Source: the human T2T-CHM13v2.0 reference genome, Homo sapiens. From it: 64,000 bases of DNA. A program made the position numbers and the translations under genes. The notes beneath the pieces are model-generated. The model had not been told where the DNA came from. It saw only the letters and a program-made list of their open reading frames with translations, and did not search any database. The stretch is taken from NCBI RefSeq assembly GCF_009914755.1, contig NC_060925.1; one strand, given 5' to 3'. Positions 18,637 through 64,000 of the stretch are shown here, piece by piece (within the stretch, counting starts at the first letter, position 1; each line of letters starts with the position of its first letter).

Positions 18637-19584
18637 CTACCCCATTCTTCAAGCAACTGAAATTTTTCAAGATATTGCTATCACTTACATTGATTTTATA
18701 TATATATCTTCTGTATGTTAGATGCTAAAGGAAATGCCACTTTTAAATAGCTTTATTTTCTACTCTCCCGATAGTCATTAAATTGAGGAGTTTGAGGAGG
18801 ACCCTAGCGGTCTCAGTTAATACAATTTACTTGATTAATTCAACTGGGAAACAATAGAGGATATAGATGATAAAAATAATTATAGCTGTGGAAGACAGAA
18901 TGGGAAGGGTGATACTGAAATCTTAATTCTTTCAAGAAAAAAAAATCTGATAGAAGATGGTACCAAAACTAGAGGAAACTAATTTGATAGTGCAATTATT
19001 TTTGTACATGTGAATTGTTCCCATGGATGGTGATTAAGGCCATAATGTCCATTTTAACTTTGGATACTAAAAACTTTTCTTACCAAAATTCCTTGAAATT
19101 TTCACATGATTGAAATTTGTTTGACAGAAGACATGCAGCTGATCTTAGAGAACATTTCTTGTGTAGTTAATTCCCAAGAAATAAAATTAATCTAAAACAA
19201 ATCATTTTACATTAAAATTGACATAACAAAGTAAATTGCTTTAAAGCAGTGGAAGGATGACTGAATAGGAGACAGAAGTGTATTTTGACTAAAGAGCAAG
19301 CCCACGTAGATTAAATATAATTTCTTTATTATAAAAAAGGAACTTCATAAGCAGGAACTTCATAAGCATATCAGCATCTTTTGTGCTTTTTAATAATTTT
19401 TTTATGGTTAAATTTTAATTTATTTGGTGAAAACACCAGTGGAAGCACCATTTCTCTTGCATGCTCTCAATTTCCTCAGCTCCCTTGGGCCTCAGAGTAG
19501 TGACTTAATAAAAATGTAAGCACCTGGTGTCTTAGCCAAAGGCCCTCTGTAGGGAGGGAACTAGAGCTTTGGGGGAACTAGAGC

Positions 19585-19810
19585 TTTGGGGAAGCAGTTG
19601 GTTCCGGAATCTGATTGTGTGGAGTTGAATCTCGCTCTGCCATTTTCTAATTGTGCACCACTGGGCAAATCTCTTCACTGTAATGGGTCCTTTTTTCTTC
19701 ACATTTAAAATAAGGACATAAAATCAATATTTCCCTCACAGATTACATATCTTGATATGTAACGACTTAATGTACTCTTGGGCACATGATCAACATTCAA
19801 TAAACCAGAG
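19585..19810 (+). mobile_element. MIR
   Basis: ttgaatctcgctctgccatttt...ctgggcaaatctctt...cacatttaaaataagga. Confidence 0.65.
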
Positions 19811-20419: not shown

Positions 20420-20790
20420 TGACTGCTGAGAGGAAATGCTCAGCGTCTCAGTGGCTTCTCCCATGATAGTTTGCTTATCGCTCACTTGAAGTCCATGCAT
20501 CTGTTCCTGGTCATGTAGCTTTCCTGGACAGCTTCTCTTCAAGCAATGCTTTAGAGATTCAGATCACTTTCTTGATATGAGGTCATCTGCAACATGTGGC
20601 TTCTGTGATCACCATAGAGGCAAAAGATGGTGGAGAAGGCATAACTGCTTCAGCTCAGAAGTGACACTTTCTTTCTTTATTCCCTCTGTGGGAATCAATC
20701 TCATGGCCCTACCTGGGAGAAAGACAGCTGTAAACAATAGTTGTCTGATGGGGAAGAGGAGCTGCCTTGGTTGCATGGTCAGTCACATTA
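20420..20790. mobile_element. Old MaLR (MLT1-like) LTR fragment; source of the copy at 28581-28783
   Basis: tctcagtggctt...ttatcgctcac...cagaagtgacac motifs. Confidence 0.45.
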
Positions 20791-21813: not shown

Positions 21814-23430
21814 ACATGGTACACTGGACCTTTGGCCTCTCCATTTCTTCCTGCTCCTCCCACACTGGCCAGCATGCTGCCCTTTTGCATGTTTAGTAAG
21901 TGACATATTGAAGAAGGAAATGTACTGACTATTTGCTTCTTGTTGGCAAGACTAATAAAAGTCACTCTAGTAAAATTGTGATGCATTTGCCTAAAATGAG
22001 GCTTTCTGGATTACAAGCAGATTTCATTTATCATAATATCCCTGTCCTCCATAACCATGAGTAACATAATTGACTCTGATTTAATCCTCTATTTCAAATA
22101 TGCAGGTCATTCCAGAGTTAAACTCCTGTAAGTAAGAAAAATGAATATTGCTGTAATTGAATAGCTAAATTGGCAGAGCATTCAACATGAGATAAATTAG
22201 GAAGAAATTGACAGTAAGAACTATCTTTTCCCTGACACCAGAAGCACAACATGAAGAAAGCCAATTAAATCGAACATCTCATCAACCCATTAACAAGTGT
22301 AGAATTACACTTTAGGGTTTATTTTTCCAACGCAACACTTCATTTAAAGCACAGTGTTAGGGAACTGGAGATATATTTTTAAATACACACACACATATGT
22401 GTGTGCATATATATCTATATTTTAACTTATAATAAACATACATGTATCTATATTTTAACTTGACAGTCTAAATAATTTGTTACTATTCAGCTTGGAGATT
22501 TAAAACAAATTAAGCCAAGCTATAAAAATATTATCCATGATATACCAGATAAGGGTAGCACACTACAACCTTCCATTATACATTAATAACATGTTGATCT
22601 CTGACCATACCAGAGTTAAAACCAACTGGGAATCTGAGTGACTTTAAATAGGACATGCACTCTTTTACACCCTCAAATTTCATTCATTTATATTCTCTGA
22701 CCCCTGAAGTTGTTTGAGTTTATACTATCTGTTTCAGATAATTCAGGTCTTCATGAAATAATTCAAAGCCCCATCTGCTATTTCTTTGGCAGGGGTTGGG
22801 CGTCAATTGAAACTACCACAGTTCCTCACCTAACCCACCTGAGGTGTAATTTTAATAGCCAAAAGACGAGAGCAAAGTATTATGTACTAGAGCATGGCTT
22901 AGAAATAAAAGGACCTGAGGGAAGAAAAAAGAAAACATAGCGAAAGTTTAATTCCGTTCTTTGAACTCTTCCAGACTAAACAAGACAGAACAAACTCCCT
23001 TTTCCCTTGATAAAAAGGTAAATAGTATAATTAAACACTTATCCAAAGAAAAGTGTTTATATAAAATATAAAATACTTATCCAAAGAAAATATAAAATCC
23101 TATTTACTTATCTGTTTCTAAGTTCTAGGTATCATCCTTACCACTGAAGCTATAAAGACAAGCAAGACTCTCATTCATTCAGTCATCATTCAATCATTTA
23201 CACATATGTATTTACTATGACTAGGGTTTTGGGTAGCATAGTGAGCAAAACCAGAAATGGATCCTGCCTTTGTGAAGTATACAGTCCCTAGGGCTTTGGG
23301 AGGCTGGGGTGAGGGAATGACTTTAGGCCAGGAGTTTGAGACCAGCCTGGGCAACATAGTGAGACCCATGTCTCTAAAAAATATTTTAAAAACTTAGCTG
23401 GGCATGGTGGTGCATGCCTGCAGTCCTAAT

Positions 23431-26432: not shown

Positions 26433-26484
26433 GGGAGGGTAGAAAGGACTGCCAAGCAGGGAGGGTAGAAAGGACTGCCAAGCA
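26433..26484. repeat. Perfect 26-bp tandem duplication
   Basis: gggagggtagaaaggactgccaagca x2. Confidence 0.95.
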
Positions 26485-28289
26485 GAGAAAGAAACATGAA
26501 TCAGAACCAGCTAATACAGGATGGGAGAGTACATGTGCCATTATCAAACACACAGAGGAGTGAATAAGAAGCAAAGGTAGCAGATATTAAGAACTAAGCT
26601 TTGGAGATATTGATATACTTTGAGTCCAGAGAAGGAGCTAAGATGAGAAGCTGGGGGAGTCCGTGTTGTGGAAAAGGGCATAGTTGGGTTGGCGTGTGCA
26701 TTCATTCTCAGTTTCTGCCCTGACAGAATGTTTGCACGTTTTTGCAAGTCCTTAAATTCTTCAATTTCATTCAAACTGTGTCCCTCAGTCAAGGTGCCTC
26801 CAGGGACCTTGGCCACCCCCTTGATTGCGCCATGAAAACATCCCCCCTTTTACCTTTGCCAGCTGTTTTCTCCCGCTAACTCTACTCTTTATTGCCTCTC
26901 TCACCCCTGATCTGTCATCTCTATTGCTCTAGTCTATCAATTGCCAAGTCTATATTTAACCACAGGTAAGCACCTCTTCTAACTGATAGTCATTTAAAAA
27001 AGCATTTTGCAGCATTTCTATACCATGCCTTATAATTGTTACGCAATTTGTTTTTCATGCCTCTCAAAGGACGAATCCTATTTTCCATGATAGCATATTT
27101 TACTATCCCCACAAAAAGAGAATGAAGCAATTTGATTTGAACATTTAGAAGCTTTTCCTTCTTCTTAAAATTCCCCAGTATCATTACCATTAATTTAATT
27201 ACTCTACCTTTCTTGTTTCAAAAAAAAAAAAAAAAAAAGAGAAAGAGGTGTTTTCCATTCTAAAGTTTAGTCACCTGCTTGTGCTTTAGCTACTCTGGAC
27301 CTATATCCACCAAACATTCTCCTTTTTTTCTATTAAATCTTAAACTTTGCTTTGCCCCTGGCTCTGTACCAAGCTGTTCGAGTTTTCTCCCTCCTTTCCT
27401 CTGTACACAGGCACAAAAACTTCCCTTGATTTTAGCAAGCTTCCCTTTGAGGTCATCACCTTTTCTTTCCCTTTAACCACCTGCTTTCTTACAACAGTTT
27501 TACATAATGTCTTCTCTTTTCTCTCCTTAGAAAATCAACATAACAGAAATATTTTCCCTTCTAGCATGCTCCTCATTTTAACTGCACGTTCTCATTATAT
27601 CAGCAAGTAAGATTGTTCATATCTTTTCCGTTTGTTCTTCCCATGTTTTCAGGGCTTTGGTGTCTCTCCTCACTGAAGTGGGAATTGTCATGATAAAATA
27701 TGACAATATAGATAGCATTTGAGTTAAAGAGGAAGGAAACATATGGGTAGTTGACAACACACATATGTCACTTACGCCAGGACCACACTGGAGAAGCCAG
27801 TTCTCTCAACTACGGTCACTGGTTTTATACAAGATCAAGCTAATTCTTTTTTAGGTGGGTTTGGGAAATGACTTTGAGCAAATGTATTTATTCTCAGTGT
27901 ATTTTCAACAGATAGTTTTGTTCCAAAAAATAATCTTGTGGCTGTTCTTCTAGACAAAGCAGAATCACTAATAGGTATTTGAAGGTCTGATCTGCCCACG
28001 GCATAAGCATACAGCTGTTGGGCCAACAGGTCTGTAGTTAGTAAATGAGGCAAAGGTCAACTGAAATGTCTTTTATGTAGTATCTAAGCCTGGAAAGAAC
28101 CCGGACAGAACAAAGAAGACCCGTTAGCACAGCAGCAATCCCAAGTGGGGATGAGTCCAAGGGCTCCGGACTTATTCCCTGAGACGCTAAGGCTCAACTT
28201 CTGTACTTATTTTTCTTCTTATTTGAAAAGCCTCAGTGACTCGTCATTCTCTGTTTTTAATCTTTTGCCACAGGGGAGAAGCTCCTTTA

Positions 28290-28493
28290 AAAATATATAT
28301 ATATTATATATATATATACACACACATATATAATTTTTGAGAAAAAAATATATATACACATTTTTGAGGAAAAAATATAATACATATGTATTTTTTGAGG
28401 AAAAATATGTATACATATATATTTTTTGAGGAAAAGTATGTATACATATATATTTTTTGAGGAAAAAGTATATATACATATATATTTTTTGAG
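28290..28493. repeat. (TA)n-derived minisatellite with about 6 units of ~29-31 bp
   Basis: Repeated tttttgaggaaaaa(g)tatRtatacatatata ending in ttttttgagacggagt. Confidence 0.9.
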
Positions 28494-28500
28494 ACGGAGT

Positions 28501-28783
28501 TATAATTGTTACTTGATTTGTTTTTCATGCCTCTCAAAGGCACCTAATCTGCCTGAAGTGTAATTTTAATACCTTTAATACTCTTCAAGCAATGCTTTAG
28601 AGATTCAGATCATTTTCTTGATGTGAGGTCATCTGCAGCATGTGGCTTCTGTGGTCACCACAGAGGCAAAAGATGGTGGAGGAGGCATAACTGCTTCAGC
28701 TCAGAAATGACACTTTATTTTTTTGTTCCTTTTGTGGGAATCAATCTCATGGCCCTACCTGGAAGAAAGACAGCGTAAACAAT
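28501..28783 (+). other. Composite insertion of local sequence copies (from 27031-27070, 22827-22857 and 20535-20738)
   Basis: Aligned by eye: 37/40, 27/31 and about 190/204 identities. Confidence 0.85.
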
Positions 28784-29052
28784 TGTTCTCTTTTTCTTTT
28801 TTTTTTTTTTTTTTTTGAGACAGAGTCTCGCTCCGTCACCCAGGCTGGAGTGCAGTGGCATGATCTTTGTCACTACAACTTCTGCCTCCCAGGTTCAAAC
28901 AATTCTCCTGCCTCAGCCTCGCAAGTAGCTGGGGTTACAGGTGCCGGCCACCACGCCCAGCTAGTTTTTGTATTTTTGTGTGTGTGTGTGTGTGTGTTTC
29001 TATTTTTATTTGTTTCAAGGAATTTAACATTTTTAAAACTTTTTTCATTTTT

Positions 29053-29646
29053 AAAAATATGGATCACTTCATGAATTTGCACTTCTCCTTGCAGGGGTCA
29101 TGCTAATCTTCTCCATCATTTCCACTTTAGGATATTGCCACGGTTTCTACGGGACTGAACAAAGGGGGACCCACACAGGAATGAAAACTTAAAACAAAAG
29201 TAAGTATTTTAAAGGAAGGGGCCAGGGGAAGAAGAAGAGCACTCGCAGCTTCCAGTGAGCATGAACAGCACCTGAGCTTCCACAGCCCTTCCTATTTGTT
29301 GAGTAGAATGAGCAGGGAGGAGGAGGTAATGATTGCTCAGCTGCTTAATTGATCACAGGTTCATATTATTACTAAGAGGCTTCAGATGTGCCCTGTAGAT
29401 AATCACAAGAAACACTTGTGCCTGGGTCGTGACTGCCTCAGCATTCCTTCTGGGCGGTAGACGCGGTTTGTCAGTTTACCAGTTTGCCAACGTTCTGCTT
29501 TTCTGAGAACAGTTTGCTGTTTACTCATATACCCTCCAGTGGTATACTGAGTTGATCACAACCCTCACTTTCTGCAGCAGCCACTAAGGAAGGCGCAGAG
29601 GGACTTCCTTTCGGCCCGAAACAGTATCTGTGCTGCCAAAGTGAGT
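29053..29646 (-). pseudogene. U6 snRNA retropseudogene split by an LTR (29053-29135 and 29624-29646)
   Basis: The reverse complement matches U6 (aaaaatatgg...gaatttgc...gcaggggtcatgctaatcttctc... / tgtgctgccaaagtgag). It has an A-rich tail and a TSD-like ggaattt(t)aa on both sides. Confidence 0.92.
29136..29623 (-). mobile_element. LTR3 (HERV-K3/HML-6) solo LTR
   Basis: The minus strand reads gtgagggttgtgatcaactcagtataccactggagggtatatgagtaaacagcaaactgttctc, as recalled for LTR3. TG..CA ends and a degenerate 6-bp TSD ggatat/gtatct (U6 has gtatat here). Confidence 0.8.
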
Positions 29647-29843
29647 ATGGAATTTTAAATTTTCATTCTTAATCTCTTCCTTCACCCACTGGTCATTCAG
29701 GAGCATGTTGTTTAATTTCCACGTATTTGTATAGTTTCAAGTGTTCCTCTTGTTATTGCTTTCTAGTTTTGTTGCACTGTGGTCAGATAAGATACCTGGT
29801 ATGATTTTGATTTTTAAAACATTGTAGAGACATGTTTTGTGTC

Positions 29844-31052
29844 TTTTTTTTTTTTTTTTTTTTTTTTTAGTATTTGTTGATCATTCTTGGGTGTTTCGCG
29901 GAGACGGGGATGTGGCAGGGTCATAGGATAATAGTGGAGGGAAGGTCAGCAGATAAACACGTGAACAAAGGTCTCTGGTTTTCCTAGGCAGAGGTCCCTG
30001 TGGCCTTTGGCCCTGTTTGTGTCCCTGGGTACTTGAGATTAGGGAGTGGTGATGACTCTTAAGGAGCATGCTGCCTTCAAGCATGTGTTTAACAAAGCAC
30101 ATCTTGCACCGCCCTTAATCCATTTAATGCTGAGTGGACACAGCACATGTTTCAGAGAGCACGGGGTTGCGGGTAAGGTTATAGATTAACAGCATCCCAA
30201 GGCAGAAGAATTTTTCTTAGTACAGAACAAAATGGAGTCTCTTATGTCTACTTCTTTCTACACAGACACAGTAACAATCTGATCTCTCTTTCTTTTCCCC
30301 ACATTTCTCCCTTTTCTTTTCTCCCCCTTTTCTTTTTGACAAAACTGCCATCGTCATACTGGCCCGTTCTCGATGGTCGCTGTCTCTTTGGAGCTGTTGG
30401 GTACACCTGCAGAAAGGCTGTCACTTCACACTTGGAAGATTGCACAGCGGCCAGGCAGAGGCGCTCCTCACTTCCCAGACGGGGTGGCGGCGGGGCAGAG
30501 GCGCTCCTCGCATCCCAGACGGGGCAGCCGGGCAGAGGTGCCCCTCACTTCCCAGACGGGGCAGCCGGGCAGAGGCCCCCCTCACTTCCCAGACGGGGCG
30601 GCCAGGCAGAGGCGCTCCTCACTTCCCAGACGGGGTGGCGGCCGGGCAGAGGCTGTAATCTTAACACTTTGGGAGGCCAAGGCAGGTGGCTGGGAGGTGG
30701 AGGTTGTAGCGAGCCGAGATCACGCCACTGTACTCCAGCCTGGGCAACACTGAGCACTGAGTGAGGAGACTCCGTCTGCAATCCCAGCACCTTGGGAGGC
30801 CGAGGCGGGCAGACCACTCGAGGTCAGGAGCTGGAGACCAGCCCGGTCAACACCGCGAAACCCCGTCTCCACCAAAAATACAAAAACCAGTCAGGCGTGG
30901 CGGCGCGTGCCTGCAATCCCAGGCACTTGGCAGGCCGAGGCAGGAGAATCACGGGAGCCCGAGGCAGGGAGGTTGCAGCGAGCTGAGATCAGGGCAGTAC
31001 AGTCCAGCCTCGGCAACAGAGGGAGACCAAAGAAAGAAAGAGGGGGAGGGGG
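29844..31052 (-). mobile_element. SVA_A-type retrotransposon: short hexamer remnant, Alu-like domain, ~5 VNTR units, SINE-R and poly(A)
   Basis: T25 at 29844-29868, SINE-R at ~29869-30445 (including cacctgcagaaaggctgtcacttcacacttggaagattgcac), VNTR ggcagaggcgctcctcacttcccagacgggg at ~30447-30652, Alu-like region to ~31030, then agggggaggggg. Confidence 0.95.
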
Positions 31053-31194
31053 AGTTTTTGTATTTTTAGTAGAGAGGGGGTTTCACTATGTTGGCCAGGC
31101 TTGTCTTGAACTCCCGACCTCAGGTGATCCGCCTGCCTCAGCCTCCCAAAGTGCTGGGATTACAGACGTGAGCCACTGGGCCCAGCCTAGAAAT

Positions 31195-31610
31195 TCTATT
31201 TTATTGTATATATTTAAGGCACGCAGCATGACGTTACAGGATACATACAGACAGTAAAATGGTTGCCATCGTGAGGCAAATTAACACATCTACCATCTCA
31301 GATAATTACACCTAATTTTTTGTGTGTGGCAAGAGCAGCTAAAATCTACTCATTTAGCAGGAATCCCACATACCATACAATTTTAACTGTAGCCCTCATC
31401 TTGTGCCATAGATCTCTAGACTCTCTCATCCTAGTAGCTGCTACTTTGTATCCTCTGACCTAAGTGTCCCTATTTCCTCCTCACTACCCTGTCCACTGTT
31501 TTATTCTCTGTCTCTGTGTATTTGACTTTTTTTAAAAAGAAAGATCCCACTTAGAAGTAAAATCATGCAGTATTTTTCTTTCTGTGGCTGGCTTATTTTA
31601 CTTAGCGTAA
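31195..31610 (-). mobile_element. L1MA-like 3' end
   Basis: ttttattgtatatatttaagg...atcatgcagtatttttctttctgtggctggcttattttacttagc. Confidence 0.85.
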
Positions 31611-50211: not shown

Positions 50212-51081
50212 AGTCTATGTGTAAGTCATAGACTTAAACATTGTGTAAAACACTTGAAGAAAAAATAATTTCAATAAAAAGTTATTTCTAATTAGCACTT
50301 TCTTTTTTTTACCCGTGAAGAACTAAAAAAAGTTATTTATTTATCATAAAATATAGCTGTTGATTTAGCTAGTTCAAGAAGCCCTGGAAATGTTGAAAAA
50401 GATGATGTAAGTAAGAATGTCTGAGGTCTATAATTTTTAAATTAGAAGAAAATTTTACAGACTTATTGAAAAGTCATCAAGATACAACAATTTGTTTACT
50501 TTTGTTACCTTAATGGAGAATGAAATTCAAATAAATTTGTTAAATCTTATGGAAAACTTGGGCTGAGGTTGAAAACTACAGAAAATTCTGCACTATAAAG
50601 AGATAATCAATAATGTAATGTTACTCATCTCACATAAACTGGAAGTTCCATTTACAGAAATATGGCACACAATAATGGATTGGTGGTAATACTTTTTTTT
50701 CTAAAATTAAGAATGAAGTTGGAATCATGTAGTTTGTGATAGAAACAAATCAAAGTATGGAAAGTAATAATAAGAAGAGGAAGTAAAAAGAGGATGAGGA
50801 GAGACCAAATAAGGTAAAAGATTTATAAATTAGGAGCTGGAGACAGTCCAGATATCACTTTATTTTAAATTGAACAAGAACACAAAGCAAGTCAATAATA
50901 TTCATTTTATAAATGGAGATATTATGTTGGAAAAACTGAATTTAATTCATAAGCAGCTTTACTGAAATCTTAATATATGGAAACAATAGCCAAAATCACC
51001 ACTTTAAGGTATATAAGTATGTAAAGTATAACTTTAAATAAATCAATTAGTTACTAGTATCATTTAAGAATTTGAAAACTA

Positions 51082-51407
<326 letters not shown>

Positions 51408-52464
51408 CTATTTTCAGTAAAATGCAAGGAATACTAACTATAAAATGATAGAACCTTACACTGAGTAGGGACTTTGTAAGTTACCTAAATCAATCTACTA
51501 TATAGTAGTGTCAATACAATCCCATTTAAGTGCTGGCTCATGAGACTGCATCATACTTTATGAAGGACTTTCCAGAGGGGAAAGAACCACCGGGACTAGC
51601 CCCAGCCCAAAGGACTGAAGGAGAACAAGAAGTCAAATTCTGGGAATGCAAATGTTAATATCAAATACAAAGACAGGGACCATTCTGAATGGGAGCTGGA
51701 GCCAGGAGTGAGAAACCCAGCATATTTGGAGCAGAAAAGGAAGGCTGTCTTGCATTGGATCAAAGAGGCTTTGTGACGTTGGTTCACATTTGTTACTCTC
51801 TGGGCACGTCGGCATCTCTGGGTGTTCTGGGCTGGCTTAAGGAATCTCAAATCAGAGTAGACAAATGTAGTGGTTTCCTTCATTACGTCTCTAAAAATCA
51901 TGCAGCCTCTGCTTTCACACTTCCAGTAACAAAATCACAACTTTTTCTCCTTTGTGAGGAAGGTGTTTGTTACATTGACCCCAAATTCTCACTTTGACAC
52001 TCCTTTTACCTGTGAAGAACTAAAAAAAAAAAGTTATTTATTTACCATAAAATATAGCTGTTGATTCAGCTAGATTGGGAATCCCTGGAAATATTGACAA
52101 AGATGATATAAGTGTAAATGTCTATCAGATAGACATGTCTATCTGAAAGAGGGATACAAAATAAGAACACTTTTAAGTATTAAATATTAACATATAATAT
52201 TTAACATTAAATATTAACTGTTCTCTGGATTTTTCATTTATCAGGTTAAATATCTTGATTCTTTTTCAGTAATCCCTAAAATGAAATCTGTACTCATATT
52301 TTATGTTTGTATAAATACTCTTTGCCTATACTTCAGTTTCTCTATATATTATAAAGAAATGAAAATCATAGAGTTGTACCTTTTCAGAGGAAGTAGAATT
52401 ATTACTTACAATAAATTATAGCACATGTTATTAGGAGTCAGGCAACAAAACTGTCTCAGATTGA

Positions 52465-57854: not shown

Positions 57855-58710
57855 TGAGAGGTGGAGCCAGCTGGGCGTCTGGGTCAGGTGGGGACTTGGA
57901 GAACTTTTCTGTCTAGCTAGAGGATTGTAAACACATGAATCAGTGCTTTGTGTCTAGCTAAAGGATTGTAAATGCACCAATCAGCACTTTGTAAAAACGC
58001 ACCAATCAGTACTCTGTAAAATGGACCAATCAGTACTCTGTAAAATGGGCCAATCAGCACTCTGTAAAATGGACTAATCAGCACTCTGTAAAATGGACCA
58101 ATCAGCAGGACGTGGGCAGGGAACAAATAAGGGAATAAAAGCTGGCCACCCCCGACAGCCAGCAGCAATCACTCGGGTCTTCTTCTGCACTGTGGAAGCG
58201 TTGTTCCTTGGCTCTTCACGAAAAATCTTGCTGGTGCTCACTCTTTGGGTCCACACTACCTTTATGAGCTGTAATACGTTACCTGTATGAGCTGTAATGC
58301 TCACCGCGAGGGTCTGAGGCTTCATTCCTGAAGTCAGCAACACCACGAACTCACCAGGAGGAACAAACAACTCTGGACATGCCACTTTGAAGAGCGATAA
58401 CACTCCCTGTGAAGGTCTGCAGCTTCACACCTGAAGTCAGCAACACCACAAACCCACCGGGAGGAACAAACAACTCTGGACGTGCCACCTTTAAGAGCTG
58501 TAACAGTTACTGCAAAGGTCTGCCACTTCACTCCTGAAGGCAGCAAAATCACGAACCCACCTGAAGGAAGAAACTCCAGGCACATCTGAAGGAACAGACT
58601 CCGGACACACCATCTTTAAGAACTGTTAACACTCACCGCGAGGATCCACGGCTTCATTCTTGAAGTCAGCGAGACCAAGAACCCACCGGAAGGAACCAAT
58701 TCCGGACACA
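57855..58710 (+). mobile_element. LTR12 (ERV9) solo LTR
   Basis: tgagaggtg...ccggacaca with a perfect 4-bp TSD ctag, a tandem CCAAT array and tandem U5 repeats. Confidence 0.95.
57935..58140 (+). promoter_or_regulatory. LTR12 U3 CCAAT (NF-Y-type) array with a TATA-like AATAAAA
   Basis: Five intact ccaatcag units, mostly at 24-bp spacing, plus two mutated units. gggaataaaa at 58131-58140. Confidence 0.7.
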
Positions 58711-63204: not shown

Positions 63205-64000
63205 TTGTTAACTGAGAAATAATTCACATATCCAATTCACCCATCTAAAGTGTGCAGTAAATGACTTCTAGTGTATTCATAGAGTTATGCAGACATCACC
63301 ACAATCAATTTTAGAACCCTTTCATTACCCAGAAAAAAAACCCTGTACACTTTGGCCGTCACCCTCATCCCAAAATTTCCCATCCCTCCCAGCCTTAGGC
63401 AACCACTAAAGCACTTCTGTATAGATTTGCCAATTCTGGTGTTTAATATAAACGGAATCATGCAATATGTGGTCCTTTGTAAATGGTTTATTTTTTAATG
63501 ACAAAGTATTTTGAAGGTTCATTCATCTTCTAGCATGTTTCAGTACTTTATTTCTGTTTCTACTCCTAGTTATATACCCAAAAGAAATAAAAACGAATAC
63601 TGCCAAAAAAGCTTTTATGTGAATGTTCATAGCAGCATTATGAATGGAAAAATAAAATGTGAGTATATCCATTTGGAATAATGGAATATTATTAGTTAGA
63701 CAATAATTATTAATTATAATTATTATTATTGTAAATTGTAACATTATTAATAGCAATGGAACATTATTTCTGAATAATATTCTCAATGTTATTTCTGAAT
63801 AATATTCTCAATAATCCATTATGTGGATATATTCTCATTTTATTTTTCCATTCATAATGCTGCTATGAACATTCACATAAAAGCTTTTTTGGTAATATTT
63901 GTTTTTATTTCTTTTGGGTGTATAGGTAGGAGTAGAACTGCTGGGTCATACGGTAATTCTGTGGTTAGCTTTTTGAGGAAAATCTTGTCTGTTTTCTAAA
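63205..64000 (-). mobile_element. L1MB-like 3' end carrying an internal inverted duplication
   Basis: caattcacccatctaaagtgtgcag...catcaccacaatcaattttagaac...gaactgctgggtcatacggtaattct. Confidence 0.9.
63558..63937. repeat. Inverted repeat with ~114-bp arms (63558-63671 and 63824-63937)
   Basis: ccaaaaaagcttttatgtgaatgttcatagcagcattatgaatggaaaaataaaatg is the exact reverse complement of the core of the right arm. Confidence 0.95.

What the first reader, a model, noticed from the sequence alone, without database searches (positions are those of the whole stretch)
28485..28820. Chain of templated local copies between an aborted Alu tail and the full Alu
Seen, in order: (1) ttttttgagacggagt, only ~10 nt of an Alu 3' end; (2) 28501-28540, matching 27031-27070 (37/40); (3) 28541-28571, matching 22827-22857 (27/31); (4) a short tttaata filler; (5) 28581-28783, matching 20535-20738 (~93%); (6) poly(T) and the Alu starting again. 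All pieces are in the same orientation and each donor lies further upstream (-1.5, -5.7, -8 kb). Some mismatches are CA/TG pairs, which fits decay of ancestral CpGs. Inference: one old event of serial template switching. It could be DNA-templated (MMBIR or Pol-theta-like), or the L1 reverse transcriptase could have jumped from Alu RNA onto a local minus-strand transcript and back during TPRT. The ~7% divergence is roughly compatible with an AluS-era event.
Basis: partly seen in the sequence, partly recalled or inferred. Interest (0 to 1): 0.75.

Follow-up and report, generated by a model that had tools for sequence, protein, structure and literature searches.

The report
Three-piece local patch inside an Alu
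Three short stretches copied from 1.5, 5.7 and 8 kb away sit end to end inside the tail end of an old Alu element, likely the scar of one error-prone DNA repair event (less likely a stumble during the Alu's own insertion), which is a real but known kind of genome change with no sign of function.

Summary
Three same-orientation copies (37/40, 27/31, 196/212) of donors 1.5, 5.7 and 8.0 kb to the left abut between a 10-nt Alu 3' stub and a second T-tail that resumes the Alu. No distant copy was found. Corrections: piece 3 runs to 28791. The 'full Alu' is split at its linker by a younger SVA carrying an 853-bp 3' transduction from chr21 (96% identical; it contains the U6 pseudogene; no SVA at the chr21 site). 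Junction microhomology is 0-1 nt. The patch is about as old as its Alu or somewhat younger (3.1% vs 4.5% non-CpG per lineage, p=0.37). A genome-wide look at stubs broken at the same Alu position found two templated insertions clearly younger than their Alu, two duplication edges, one sister locus as old as its Alu, and two stand-alone stubs with their own TSDs. Best reading (0.55): a serial-template-switch repair insertion in an Alu already in place, a three-donor variant of repair-mediated duplications. Coupling to the Alu's own insertion (0.35) is not excluded. Primate orthologues would decide; none is held here.

The parts
28284..28493 (.). AT-rich microsatellite running into a 31-bp x 5.6 minisatellite whose unit contains the Alu's T-run plus 3 nt; likely the eroded left TSD and first tail
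   Evidence: 28324-28493, 86% matches; degraded match to the Alu's 5' flank, shuffle p about 0.04, so inconclusive
28485..28500 (-). Alu 3' stub: 6 T of tail plus 10 nt of Alu body
   Evidence: (15/16 to 28811-28826)
28501..28540 (+). Templated piece 1, copy of 27031-27070
   Evidence: 37/40; 1-nt microhomology to the stub
28541..28571 (+). Templated piece 2, copy of 22827-22857
   Evidence: 27/31; shuffle control; 0-nt microhomology
28572..28580 (+). 9-nt filler; an 8-mer occurs twice (28565-28572, 28574-28581), a slippage re-copy
28581..28791 (+). Templated piece 3, copy of 20535-20746
   Evidence: 196/212
28792..28816 (-). Second Alu poly(A) tail (T-tract with one C)
28817..28977 (-). Alu right arm and linker, S-type by recalled diagnostics
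27031..27070 (+). Donor 1 (-1.5 kb)
22827..22857 (+). Donor 2 (-5.7 kb)
20535..20746 (+). Donor 3 (-8.0 kb)
28963..28977 (+). Left copy of the SVA insertion's target-site duplication, in the Alu linker
   Evidence: 15/15 to 31053-31067
28978..28992 (.). (GT)n microsatellite where the transduction's poly(A) tail is expected
   Evidence: origin from a tail is inferred
28993..29845 (-). 853-bp SVA 3' transduction, copy of G000:C21:42351887-42352739; holds an L1 ORF2 scrap (28993-29052), the U6 pseudogene (29053-29154) and a multi-copy repeat (about 29155-29575)
   Evidence: 820/853; U6; ORF2 match of the chr21 continuation E 2e-6
29844..31052 (-). Old SVA element (poly(A), SINE-R, short VNTR, Alu-like part, hexamer end)
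   Evidence: best full-length relative 89%; part names are recalled
31053..31067 (+). Right copy of the SVA target-site duplication
31068..31187 (-). Left arm of the same Alu
31188..31202 (+). Candidate right TSD of the Alu; no exact left partner
   Evidence: inconclusive

Best explanation
Three local copies and a second copy of the Alu's tail end are joined here, likely by one DNA repair event in which a strand broken 10 nt into an already inserted Alu would have copied three nearby templates in turn and then re-entered the Alu's T-tail. Shown: the pieces, their donors, their order, the filler, 0-1 nt junctions, single-copy status, and that the SVA and its chr21 cargo are a separate, younger insertion in the same Alu. 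Inferred: a single event; a rightward-growing + strand copying the - strand of donors at -1.5, -5.7 and -8.0 kb (FoSTeS/MMBIR- or SDSA-type switching, with one slippage step); re-entry upstream in the tail, which duplicates tail plus 10 nt; later decay of the left tail into the AT minisatellite. Order of events: Alu, then patch (about twice the SVA's age), then SVA.
For: Sister loci broken at the same Alu position show DNA events after insertion. L049 is a 381-bp inverted local copy (1.1 kb away, 97%) inside an Alu 9.7% diverged. L055 is a 115-bp re-copy of flank plus tail plus stub at 97% beside an Alu 5.7% diverged, with the same stub-insert-tail-Alu layout and a 1-nt junction. L056 and L057 are edges of 95% duplications. 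Single-donor direct local copies are common: about 5 credible others among 16 rows in 264 kb, one later interrupted by two Alus. Patch age is 17/276 non-CpG pairwise (3.1% per lineage), below twice the local S-type mean of 5.7% (P=0.004). Size, filler and TSD-like repeat fit repair-mediated duplications (PMC2671141). The second tail starts with a 9-mer that matches the candidate genomic TSD at 8/9, as re-entry on DNA would give.
Against: Microhomology is 1, 0, 0, 0, 1 nt, whereas 31 of 39 proximal repair duplications had 2-9 nt (PMC2671141 Table 1). Age does not separate the patch from this Alu (9/198 = 4.5%, p=0.37), and the pooled 5.7% is inflated by subfamily mixing. That catalogue reports only two-donor chimeras (20 of 1,136), and none of 39 proximal cases ended in a poly(A/T) tract. 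Two of our three donors lie beyond 5 kb. Stand-alone 10-nt stubs with their own TSDs exist (L045, L046), so reverse transcription does stop at this point. The 8/9 TSD match is equally explained by donor 3 running on. The 20 sister loci were hand-picked from 44.
Confidence: 0.55

Rival explanations
1. The patch arose during the Alu's own target-primed reverse transcription. Copying stopped after 10 nt of Alu, the cDNA end (extended by L1 ORF2p or a host polymerase) copied three nearby minus-strand templates, most likely single-stranded DNA or fragments rather than a transcript, and then re-primed on the Alu RNA's poly(A) and finished the element.
For: 0-1 nt junctions suit homology-free jumps; purified ORF2p copies DNA as well as RNA, adds untemplated bases and jumps templates (PMC10830420 passages), and jumps efficiently on poly(A) RNA (PMC7617806 passages). 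Engineered L1 activity gave three insertions with extra genomic pieces, one with four short local pieces (PMC11702581 section 7 and Fig. S10 caption). 2 of 13 stubs are stand-alone insertions with TSDs. L061 has TSD-tail-stub-70-bp copy from 101.6 kb away-tail-Alu-TSD, with insert age matching its Alu (3/70 pairwise vs 3.0%). Same-age test p=0.37. Re-entry lands on a 25-nt T-tract.
Against: PMC11702581 attributes its local pieces to processing of the reciprocal (5' junction) end, not the tail end. L055 shows the same layout arising after insertion. L061 has a 4-nt microhomology, and its second tail repeats the C-spacing of TSD plus first tail, as DNA re-entry would. The point estimate of patch age is two thirds of the Alu's. 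No minus-strand transcript is annotated.
Confidence: 0.35
2. Free DNA fragments from the neighbourhood (flaps or resection products) were captured by end joining at a break, or two or three independent insertions piled up at one site.
For: 0-1 nt junctions; multi-piece capture is described beside L1 insertions.
Against: All three pieces are direct, from one side and in order of distance, which random capture gives roughly once in 50-400 (my arithmetic, post hoc). There is no target sequence between pieces, divergences are homogeneous (p=0.53), and the filler shows synthesis.
Confidence: 0.07
3. Remnant of a larger duplication, an Alu 3' transduction, a processed transcript, or an assembly error.
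For: Two other stubs mark edges of larger duplications.
Against: No distant copy of the patch; the pieces are out of genomic order, so they are not a spliced RNA of either strand; 7.8% divergence, mostly transitions, excludes assembly error.
Confidence: 0.03

Closest known systems
Repair-mediated duplications (Pace et al. 2009, PMC2671141; parts 1-6 of 8 of the text read, Table S1 part 1 of 15 and two prefix searches)
   Same: Short (291 bp), single-copy local DNA inserted into a transposon; filler; TSD-like repeat; chimeric donors; age within the range listed for primate-wide cases.
   Different: Three donors rather than at most two; two donors beyond 5 kb; 0-1 nt microhomology; one end abuts a poly(T) tract. 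No chr1 row starts with 2360-2369 in Table S1 (my hg18 position of about 236.5 Mb is an estimate from recalled offsets).
L1-mediated insertions with templated genomic pieces (PMC11702581; passages, section 7 and part of the Fig. S10 caption seen)
   Same: Several short local pieces joined to a retrotransposed sequence.
   Different: Those are new insertions in cultured cells, attributed to the reciprocal end; here a fixed germline Alu, with the pieces at the tail end after a 10-nt stub.
FoSTeS/MMBIR templated-insertion chains and polymerase-theta slippage fillers (recalled; no paper read)
   Same: Serial switches, short pieces, re-copied filler.
   Different: Usually 2-6 nt microhomology (recalled); polymerase-theta templates usually lie within about 100 bp (recalled).
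SVA 3' transduction (10.1101/2021.07.12.451456 passages: 55 high-confidence SVA 3' events in CHM13)
   Same: SVA, its poly(A), flanking cargo from another chromosome, TSD around the whole.
   Different: The chr21 site carries no SVA. The preprint's tables are closed, so whether this event is listed is unknown.
U6/L1 chimeric retrocopies (PMC13174262 passages)
   Same: Full-length U6 joined in sense to an L1 piece at the chr21 source.
   Different: The chr1 copy is secondary cargo of the SVA, not an insertion of its own.

Membership tests
Repair-mediated duplication | Insert of at least 50 bp interrupts a transposon whose two parts join within 30 consensus positions | tested here: met
   Stub then the Alu resumes, overlapping by tail plus 10 nt
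Repair-mediated duplication | Donor present once elsewhere in the genome | tested here: met
   for pieces 1 and 3; piece 2 shown only in the window and not scored genome-wide
Repair-mediated duplication | Donor within 5 kb (at least one for chimeras); length up to about 620 bp | tested here: met
   1 of 3 donors at 1.5 kb, the others at 5.7 and 8.0 kb; 291 bp
Repair-mediated duplication | Breakpoints with microhomology, filler, deletion or 4-21 nt TSD | tested here: met
   9-nt filler and a repeat of at least 16 nt present; microhomology of 2 nt or more absent at 5 of 5 junctions
Repair-mediated duplication | No poly(A/T) tail on the insert | tested here: inconclusive
   A 25-nt T-tract abuts piece 3; DNA re-copy or RNA re-priming cannot be told apart
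Repair-mediated duplication | Orthologous empty site with the intact transposon | not testable with these tools
   No other primate genome is held
TPRT-coupled chimeric insertion | One TSD around all parts | tested here: inconclusive
   No exact partner for the Alu's immediate 5' flank; degraded match p about 0.04; a 9-nt AT-rich exact match 19 nt away
TPRT-coupled chimeric insertion | All parts of the same age and arriving on one branch | tested here: inconclusive
   3.1% vs 4.5% per lineage, p=0.37; branch not testable
TPRT-coupled chimeric insertion | All parts in one orientation with poly(A) at the primed end | tested here: met
   not discriminating, since the other nearby local copies are direct too
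TPRT-coupled chimeric insertion | An RNA covering the donors on the needed strand | not testable with these tools
   The given annotation shows only a + strand predicted lncRNA
SVA 3' transduction | TSD around SVA plus cargo at an L1-endonuclease-like site | tested here: met
   15/15 at 28963-28977 and 31053-31067
SVA 3' transduction | Cargo starts at the SVA poly(A) and matches one source locus | tested here: met
   820/853 to chr21; the match ends at the poly(A)
SVA 3' transduction | Poly(A) signal and terminal tail | tested here: inconclusive
   AATAAA at 29010-29005, 12 nt before the end (AACAAA on chr21); a (GT)n repeat stands where the tail is expected
SVA 3' transduction | Source SVA at the donor locus | tested here: not met
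   The chr21 site is empty in this genome. It works like a 3' transduction whose source allele was likely lost; a parent-offspring pair is not shown

The most novel reading that the evidence does not exclude
This is a germline fossil of L1 ORF2p itself stalling 10 nt into Alu RNA, jumping without homology onto three local minus-strand DNA fragments of flap and Okazaki size (40, 31, 212 nt) at a replication fork, and re-priming on poly(A). With L061 on chr12 it would belong to an uncatalogued, recurrent 'stub-patch-tail-Alu' class that records polymerase jumps and fork geometry across primate genomes.
Probability: 0.2. Interest if true: 0.6.

Novelty: new variant of a known kind. Interest (0 to 1): 0.32.

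Why it matters
As a repair scar it is neutral history: it extends repair-mediated duplications from two donors to three and out to 8 kb. Its value is as a lead. The layout recurs (this locus, L055, L061 among 21 loci examined), it can be mined genome-wide and dated with primate alignments, and that would show how often insertion-coupled jumps rather than later repair make such patches. The locus also shows that the annotated U6 pseudogene and two predicted lncRNA exons (29131-29199, 29578-29640) lie in DNA that an SVA carried from chr21.

Tried and rejected
A tripartite U6-L1-Alu chimera made in one insertion: rejected, because the U6 and L1 scrap are cargo copied from chr21 and the Alu's left arm lies beyond the SVA. 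A 5'-truncated Alu or an Alu-L1 deletion junction: rejected for the same reason. A fourth, inverted template at 27220-27247 for the second tail: low-complexity match only, not used. A snap-back palindrome at 28778-28787: possible, but donor 3 running on with two changes explains it as well. Direct orientation as evidence for an RNA template: rejected. The 24-aa chr1 L1 scrap alone found no PDB match; the 50-aa chr21 continuation did. The Alu's TSD search was inconclusive. Of 16 survey rows, 3 are this patch; I set aside 7 as repeat-derived, tandem-like or low-complexity by eye and kept 6 rows (5 events, one uncertain). Nine literature searches listed no paper that I recognised as describing this locus or a germline stub-patch-tail-Alu class; subscription papers are mostly outside the library. 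10.1101/2024.08.27.596794 (passages) gave nothing on local templated pieces. Four papers were not held, so L1's preference for lagging-strand templates, capture of Okazaki flaps at breaks, and the 2006 SVA transduction catalogue are recalled only.

Full report
OBSERVATION. Read on the + strand the site is: AT-rich minisatellite, six T plus 10 nt of an antisense Alu 3' end (28485-28500), three copied pieces with a 9-nt filler (28501-28791), a 25-nt T-tract, and the Alu again from its 3' end. The pieces match 27031-27070 (37/40), 22827-22857 (27/31) and 20535-20746 (196/212), all direct. The weakest beats 60 of 60 shuffles (at most 23/31). In the window self-comparison all three pairs lie in low-copy DNA. 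A whole-genome search returned only the patch and donors 1 and 3, and the joined stretch only itself. The stub is the only 1 of 27 Alu-type 3' ends in 264 kb that is not followed by Alu.

JUNCTIONS. Exact microhomology is 1, 0, 0, 0 and 1 nt; the filler repeats the last 8 nt before it, a slippage mark. The pieces are out of genomic order, so they are not a spliced transcript of either strand. Their divergences are homogeneous (p=0.53), which fits one event.

SURROUNDINGS. The Alu is not contiguous. A search with the neighbouring U6 region found one 95% paralogue on chr21. The match covers 28993-29845 (820/853, no gaps) and stops at the poly(T) of an SVA. The SVA runs to about 31052, then the Alu's linker and left arm follow to 31187. 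A 15-nt repeat in the linker flanks SVA plus cargo. This is the layout of an SVA 3' transduction inserted into the Alu. The chr21 site has no SVA; loss of the source allele is my inference. The cargo ends 12 nt after an AATAAA, and a (GT)n repeat stands where its tail would be. At chr21 the U6 copy is joined to L1 ORF2 sequence (E 2e-6 to solved ORF2p), a U6/L1 chimera of the kind described in PMC13174262 (passages). Among the 40 candidates scored, only chr21 is near-identical to the middle of the cargo; the SVA's best full-length relative is 89%. No clear TSD for the Alu itself was found: its 5' flank aligns to the left AT-rich stretch only loosely (p about 0.04).

AGE. Patch against donors: 22/282 = 7.8% (5.0-11.6); non-CpG 17/276 = 6.2%, or 3.1% per lineage. 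This Alu against a consensus of 44 right and 42 left arms in hand: 9/198 = 4.5% (2.1-8.5); same-age test p=0.37. Ten other S-type right arms in the window pool to 62/1088 = 5.7%. The transduction is 25/823 = 3.0% pairwise, younger than the patch (Fisher p=0.03) (all). Against twice the pooled figure the patch is low (P=0.004), but that pool is inflated by subfamily mixing. So the patch predates the SVA and is as old as its Alu or somewhat younger. Subfamily labels rest on recalled diagnostic positions.

BACKGROUND. In 264 kb (200 kb upstream plus the window) 16 low-copy local matches passed the filter: 3 are this patch, 7 I set aside by eye, and 6 rows form 5 single-donor direct copies, one uncertain. 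One of these was later interrupted by two Alus with their own TSDs. Local copying is therefore common and needs no Alu insertion; the three-donor chain is what is unusual.

SISTER LOCI. A pattern for an Alu 3' end that leaves the Alu after 10-11 nt matched 45 places (reversed-pattern control 3). I fetched 20 of the other 44, chosen to avoid those that looked like small deletions. Seven were ordinary Alus and 13 true stubs. Two stubs stand alone with 9-11 nt TSDs (L045, L046), so reverse transcription can end here. I looked for donors for 5 of the 13 and found one each time. L049: a 381-bp inverted copy from 1.1 kb, 97% identical, inside an Alu 9.7% diverged, with 3- and about 2-nt microhomology. 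L055: a 115-bp re-copy of flank, tail and stub at 97%, beside an Alu 5.7% diverged. Both postdate their Alu. L056 and L057 begin 95% duplications. L061 repeats our layout inside a 17-nt TSD, with a 70-bp copy from 101.6 kb away, a 4-nt microhomology, a 3-nt slippage and an age matching its Alu; it fits either mechanism. Six stubs were not followed up.

MECHANISM. Best: a break or stalled strand 10 nt into the resident Alu copied three upstream templates in order of distance and re-entered the tail (0.55). Rival: the same chain during the Alu's insertion, with re-priming on poly(A) (0.35). ORF2p copies DNA and jumps templates in vitro (PMC10830420, PMC7617806; passages), and L1 insertions with up to four local pieces were seen in cells, though assigned to the other end (PMC11702581). 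The missing microhomology favours the rival; sister loci and the age trend favour the best reading. Within the rival, DNA templates are likelier than a transcript, for which there is no evidence. A fork-linked version (fragments of flap and Okazaki size, donors on one side) is speculation resting on recalled work.

KNOWN KINDS. The closest is the repair-mediated duplication (PMC2671141): 824 proximal cases, mean 162 bp, 20 two-donor chimeras of which 5 have both donors local, TSDs at 6 of 39 breakpoints examined, and highest rates 30-42 million years ago. No chr1 entry near my estimated hg18 position is in its Table S1. The patch works like a member and fails no defining feature that I could test, but it has three donors and abuts a T-tract. 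SVA 3' transductions are catalogued in CHM13 (55 high-confidence events; 10.1101/2021.07.12.451456 passages); its supplements were closed and may list this one.

VERDICT. Real, well defined, neutral as far as can be seen, and a variant of a known kind. Interest 0.32. The open question, repair or insertion-coupled, is settled by primate orthologues that are not held here.

Noticed in passing
window 28963-31067; G000:C21:42351887-42352739: Old SVA with an 853-bp 3' transduction from chr21 inserted in the Alu linker; the source site has no SVA. RNU6-725P and two predicted exons of LOC105373220 lie in the cargo.
   Followed up: yes
L061 (G000:C12:102599018) with donor L063 (C12:102700680-102700749): Sister layout: TSD, tail, stub, 70-bp copy from 101.6 kb away, second tail, Y-type Alu, TSD; insert and Alu of similar age.
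   Followed up: yes
L049 (G000:C10:96465299): 381-bp inverted copy from 1.1 kb away inserted into an old Alu at the same position; a young repair duplication.
   Followed up: yes
L055 (G000:C5:70001990): 115-bp tandem re-copy of flank, tail and Alu stub, much younger than the Alu.
   Followed up: yes
L045, L046: Alu insertions truncated to about 10 nt of body, each with its own TSD.
   Followed up: partly
L056, L057: Alu stubs at the exact start of 95% duplications (partners C10:38.117 Mb and C13:51.855 Mb).
   Followed up: partly
L050, L051, L054, L058, L060, L062: Further Alu stubs, some beside inverted Alu pieces; no donor search made.
   Followed up: no
L014, G000:C21:42350505-42350548: 44-bp direct local copy (95%) of C21:42352456-42352499, ending at the 5' end of an Alu left arm.
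   Followed up: partly
window 50307-50422 and 52004-52123: 120-bp direct local duplication, 85%, 1.6 kb apart; likely an older repair duplication.
   Followed up: partly
upstream flank L020-L039 (about -190 kb, -143 kb, -84 kb, -62 kb from the window start): Four more direct local copies of 90-240 bp; the -190 kb one was later split by two Alus.
   Followed up: partly
window 63558-63937: 380-bp imperfect palindrome (79%), probably a non-autonomous DNA transposon; not identified.
   Followed up: no
window 58281-58710: Degenerate tandem array of about 110-bp units (67-77%).
   Followed up: no
window 19338-19368, 19556-19591, 26433-26485: Perfect two-copy tandem duplications of 15, 17 and 26 bp.
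   Followed up: no
window 31188-31600: Resembles the 3' end of an old L1M element (recalled, untested); the Alu sits at its tail.
   Followed up: no
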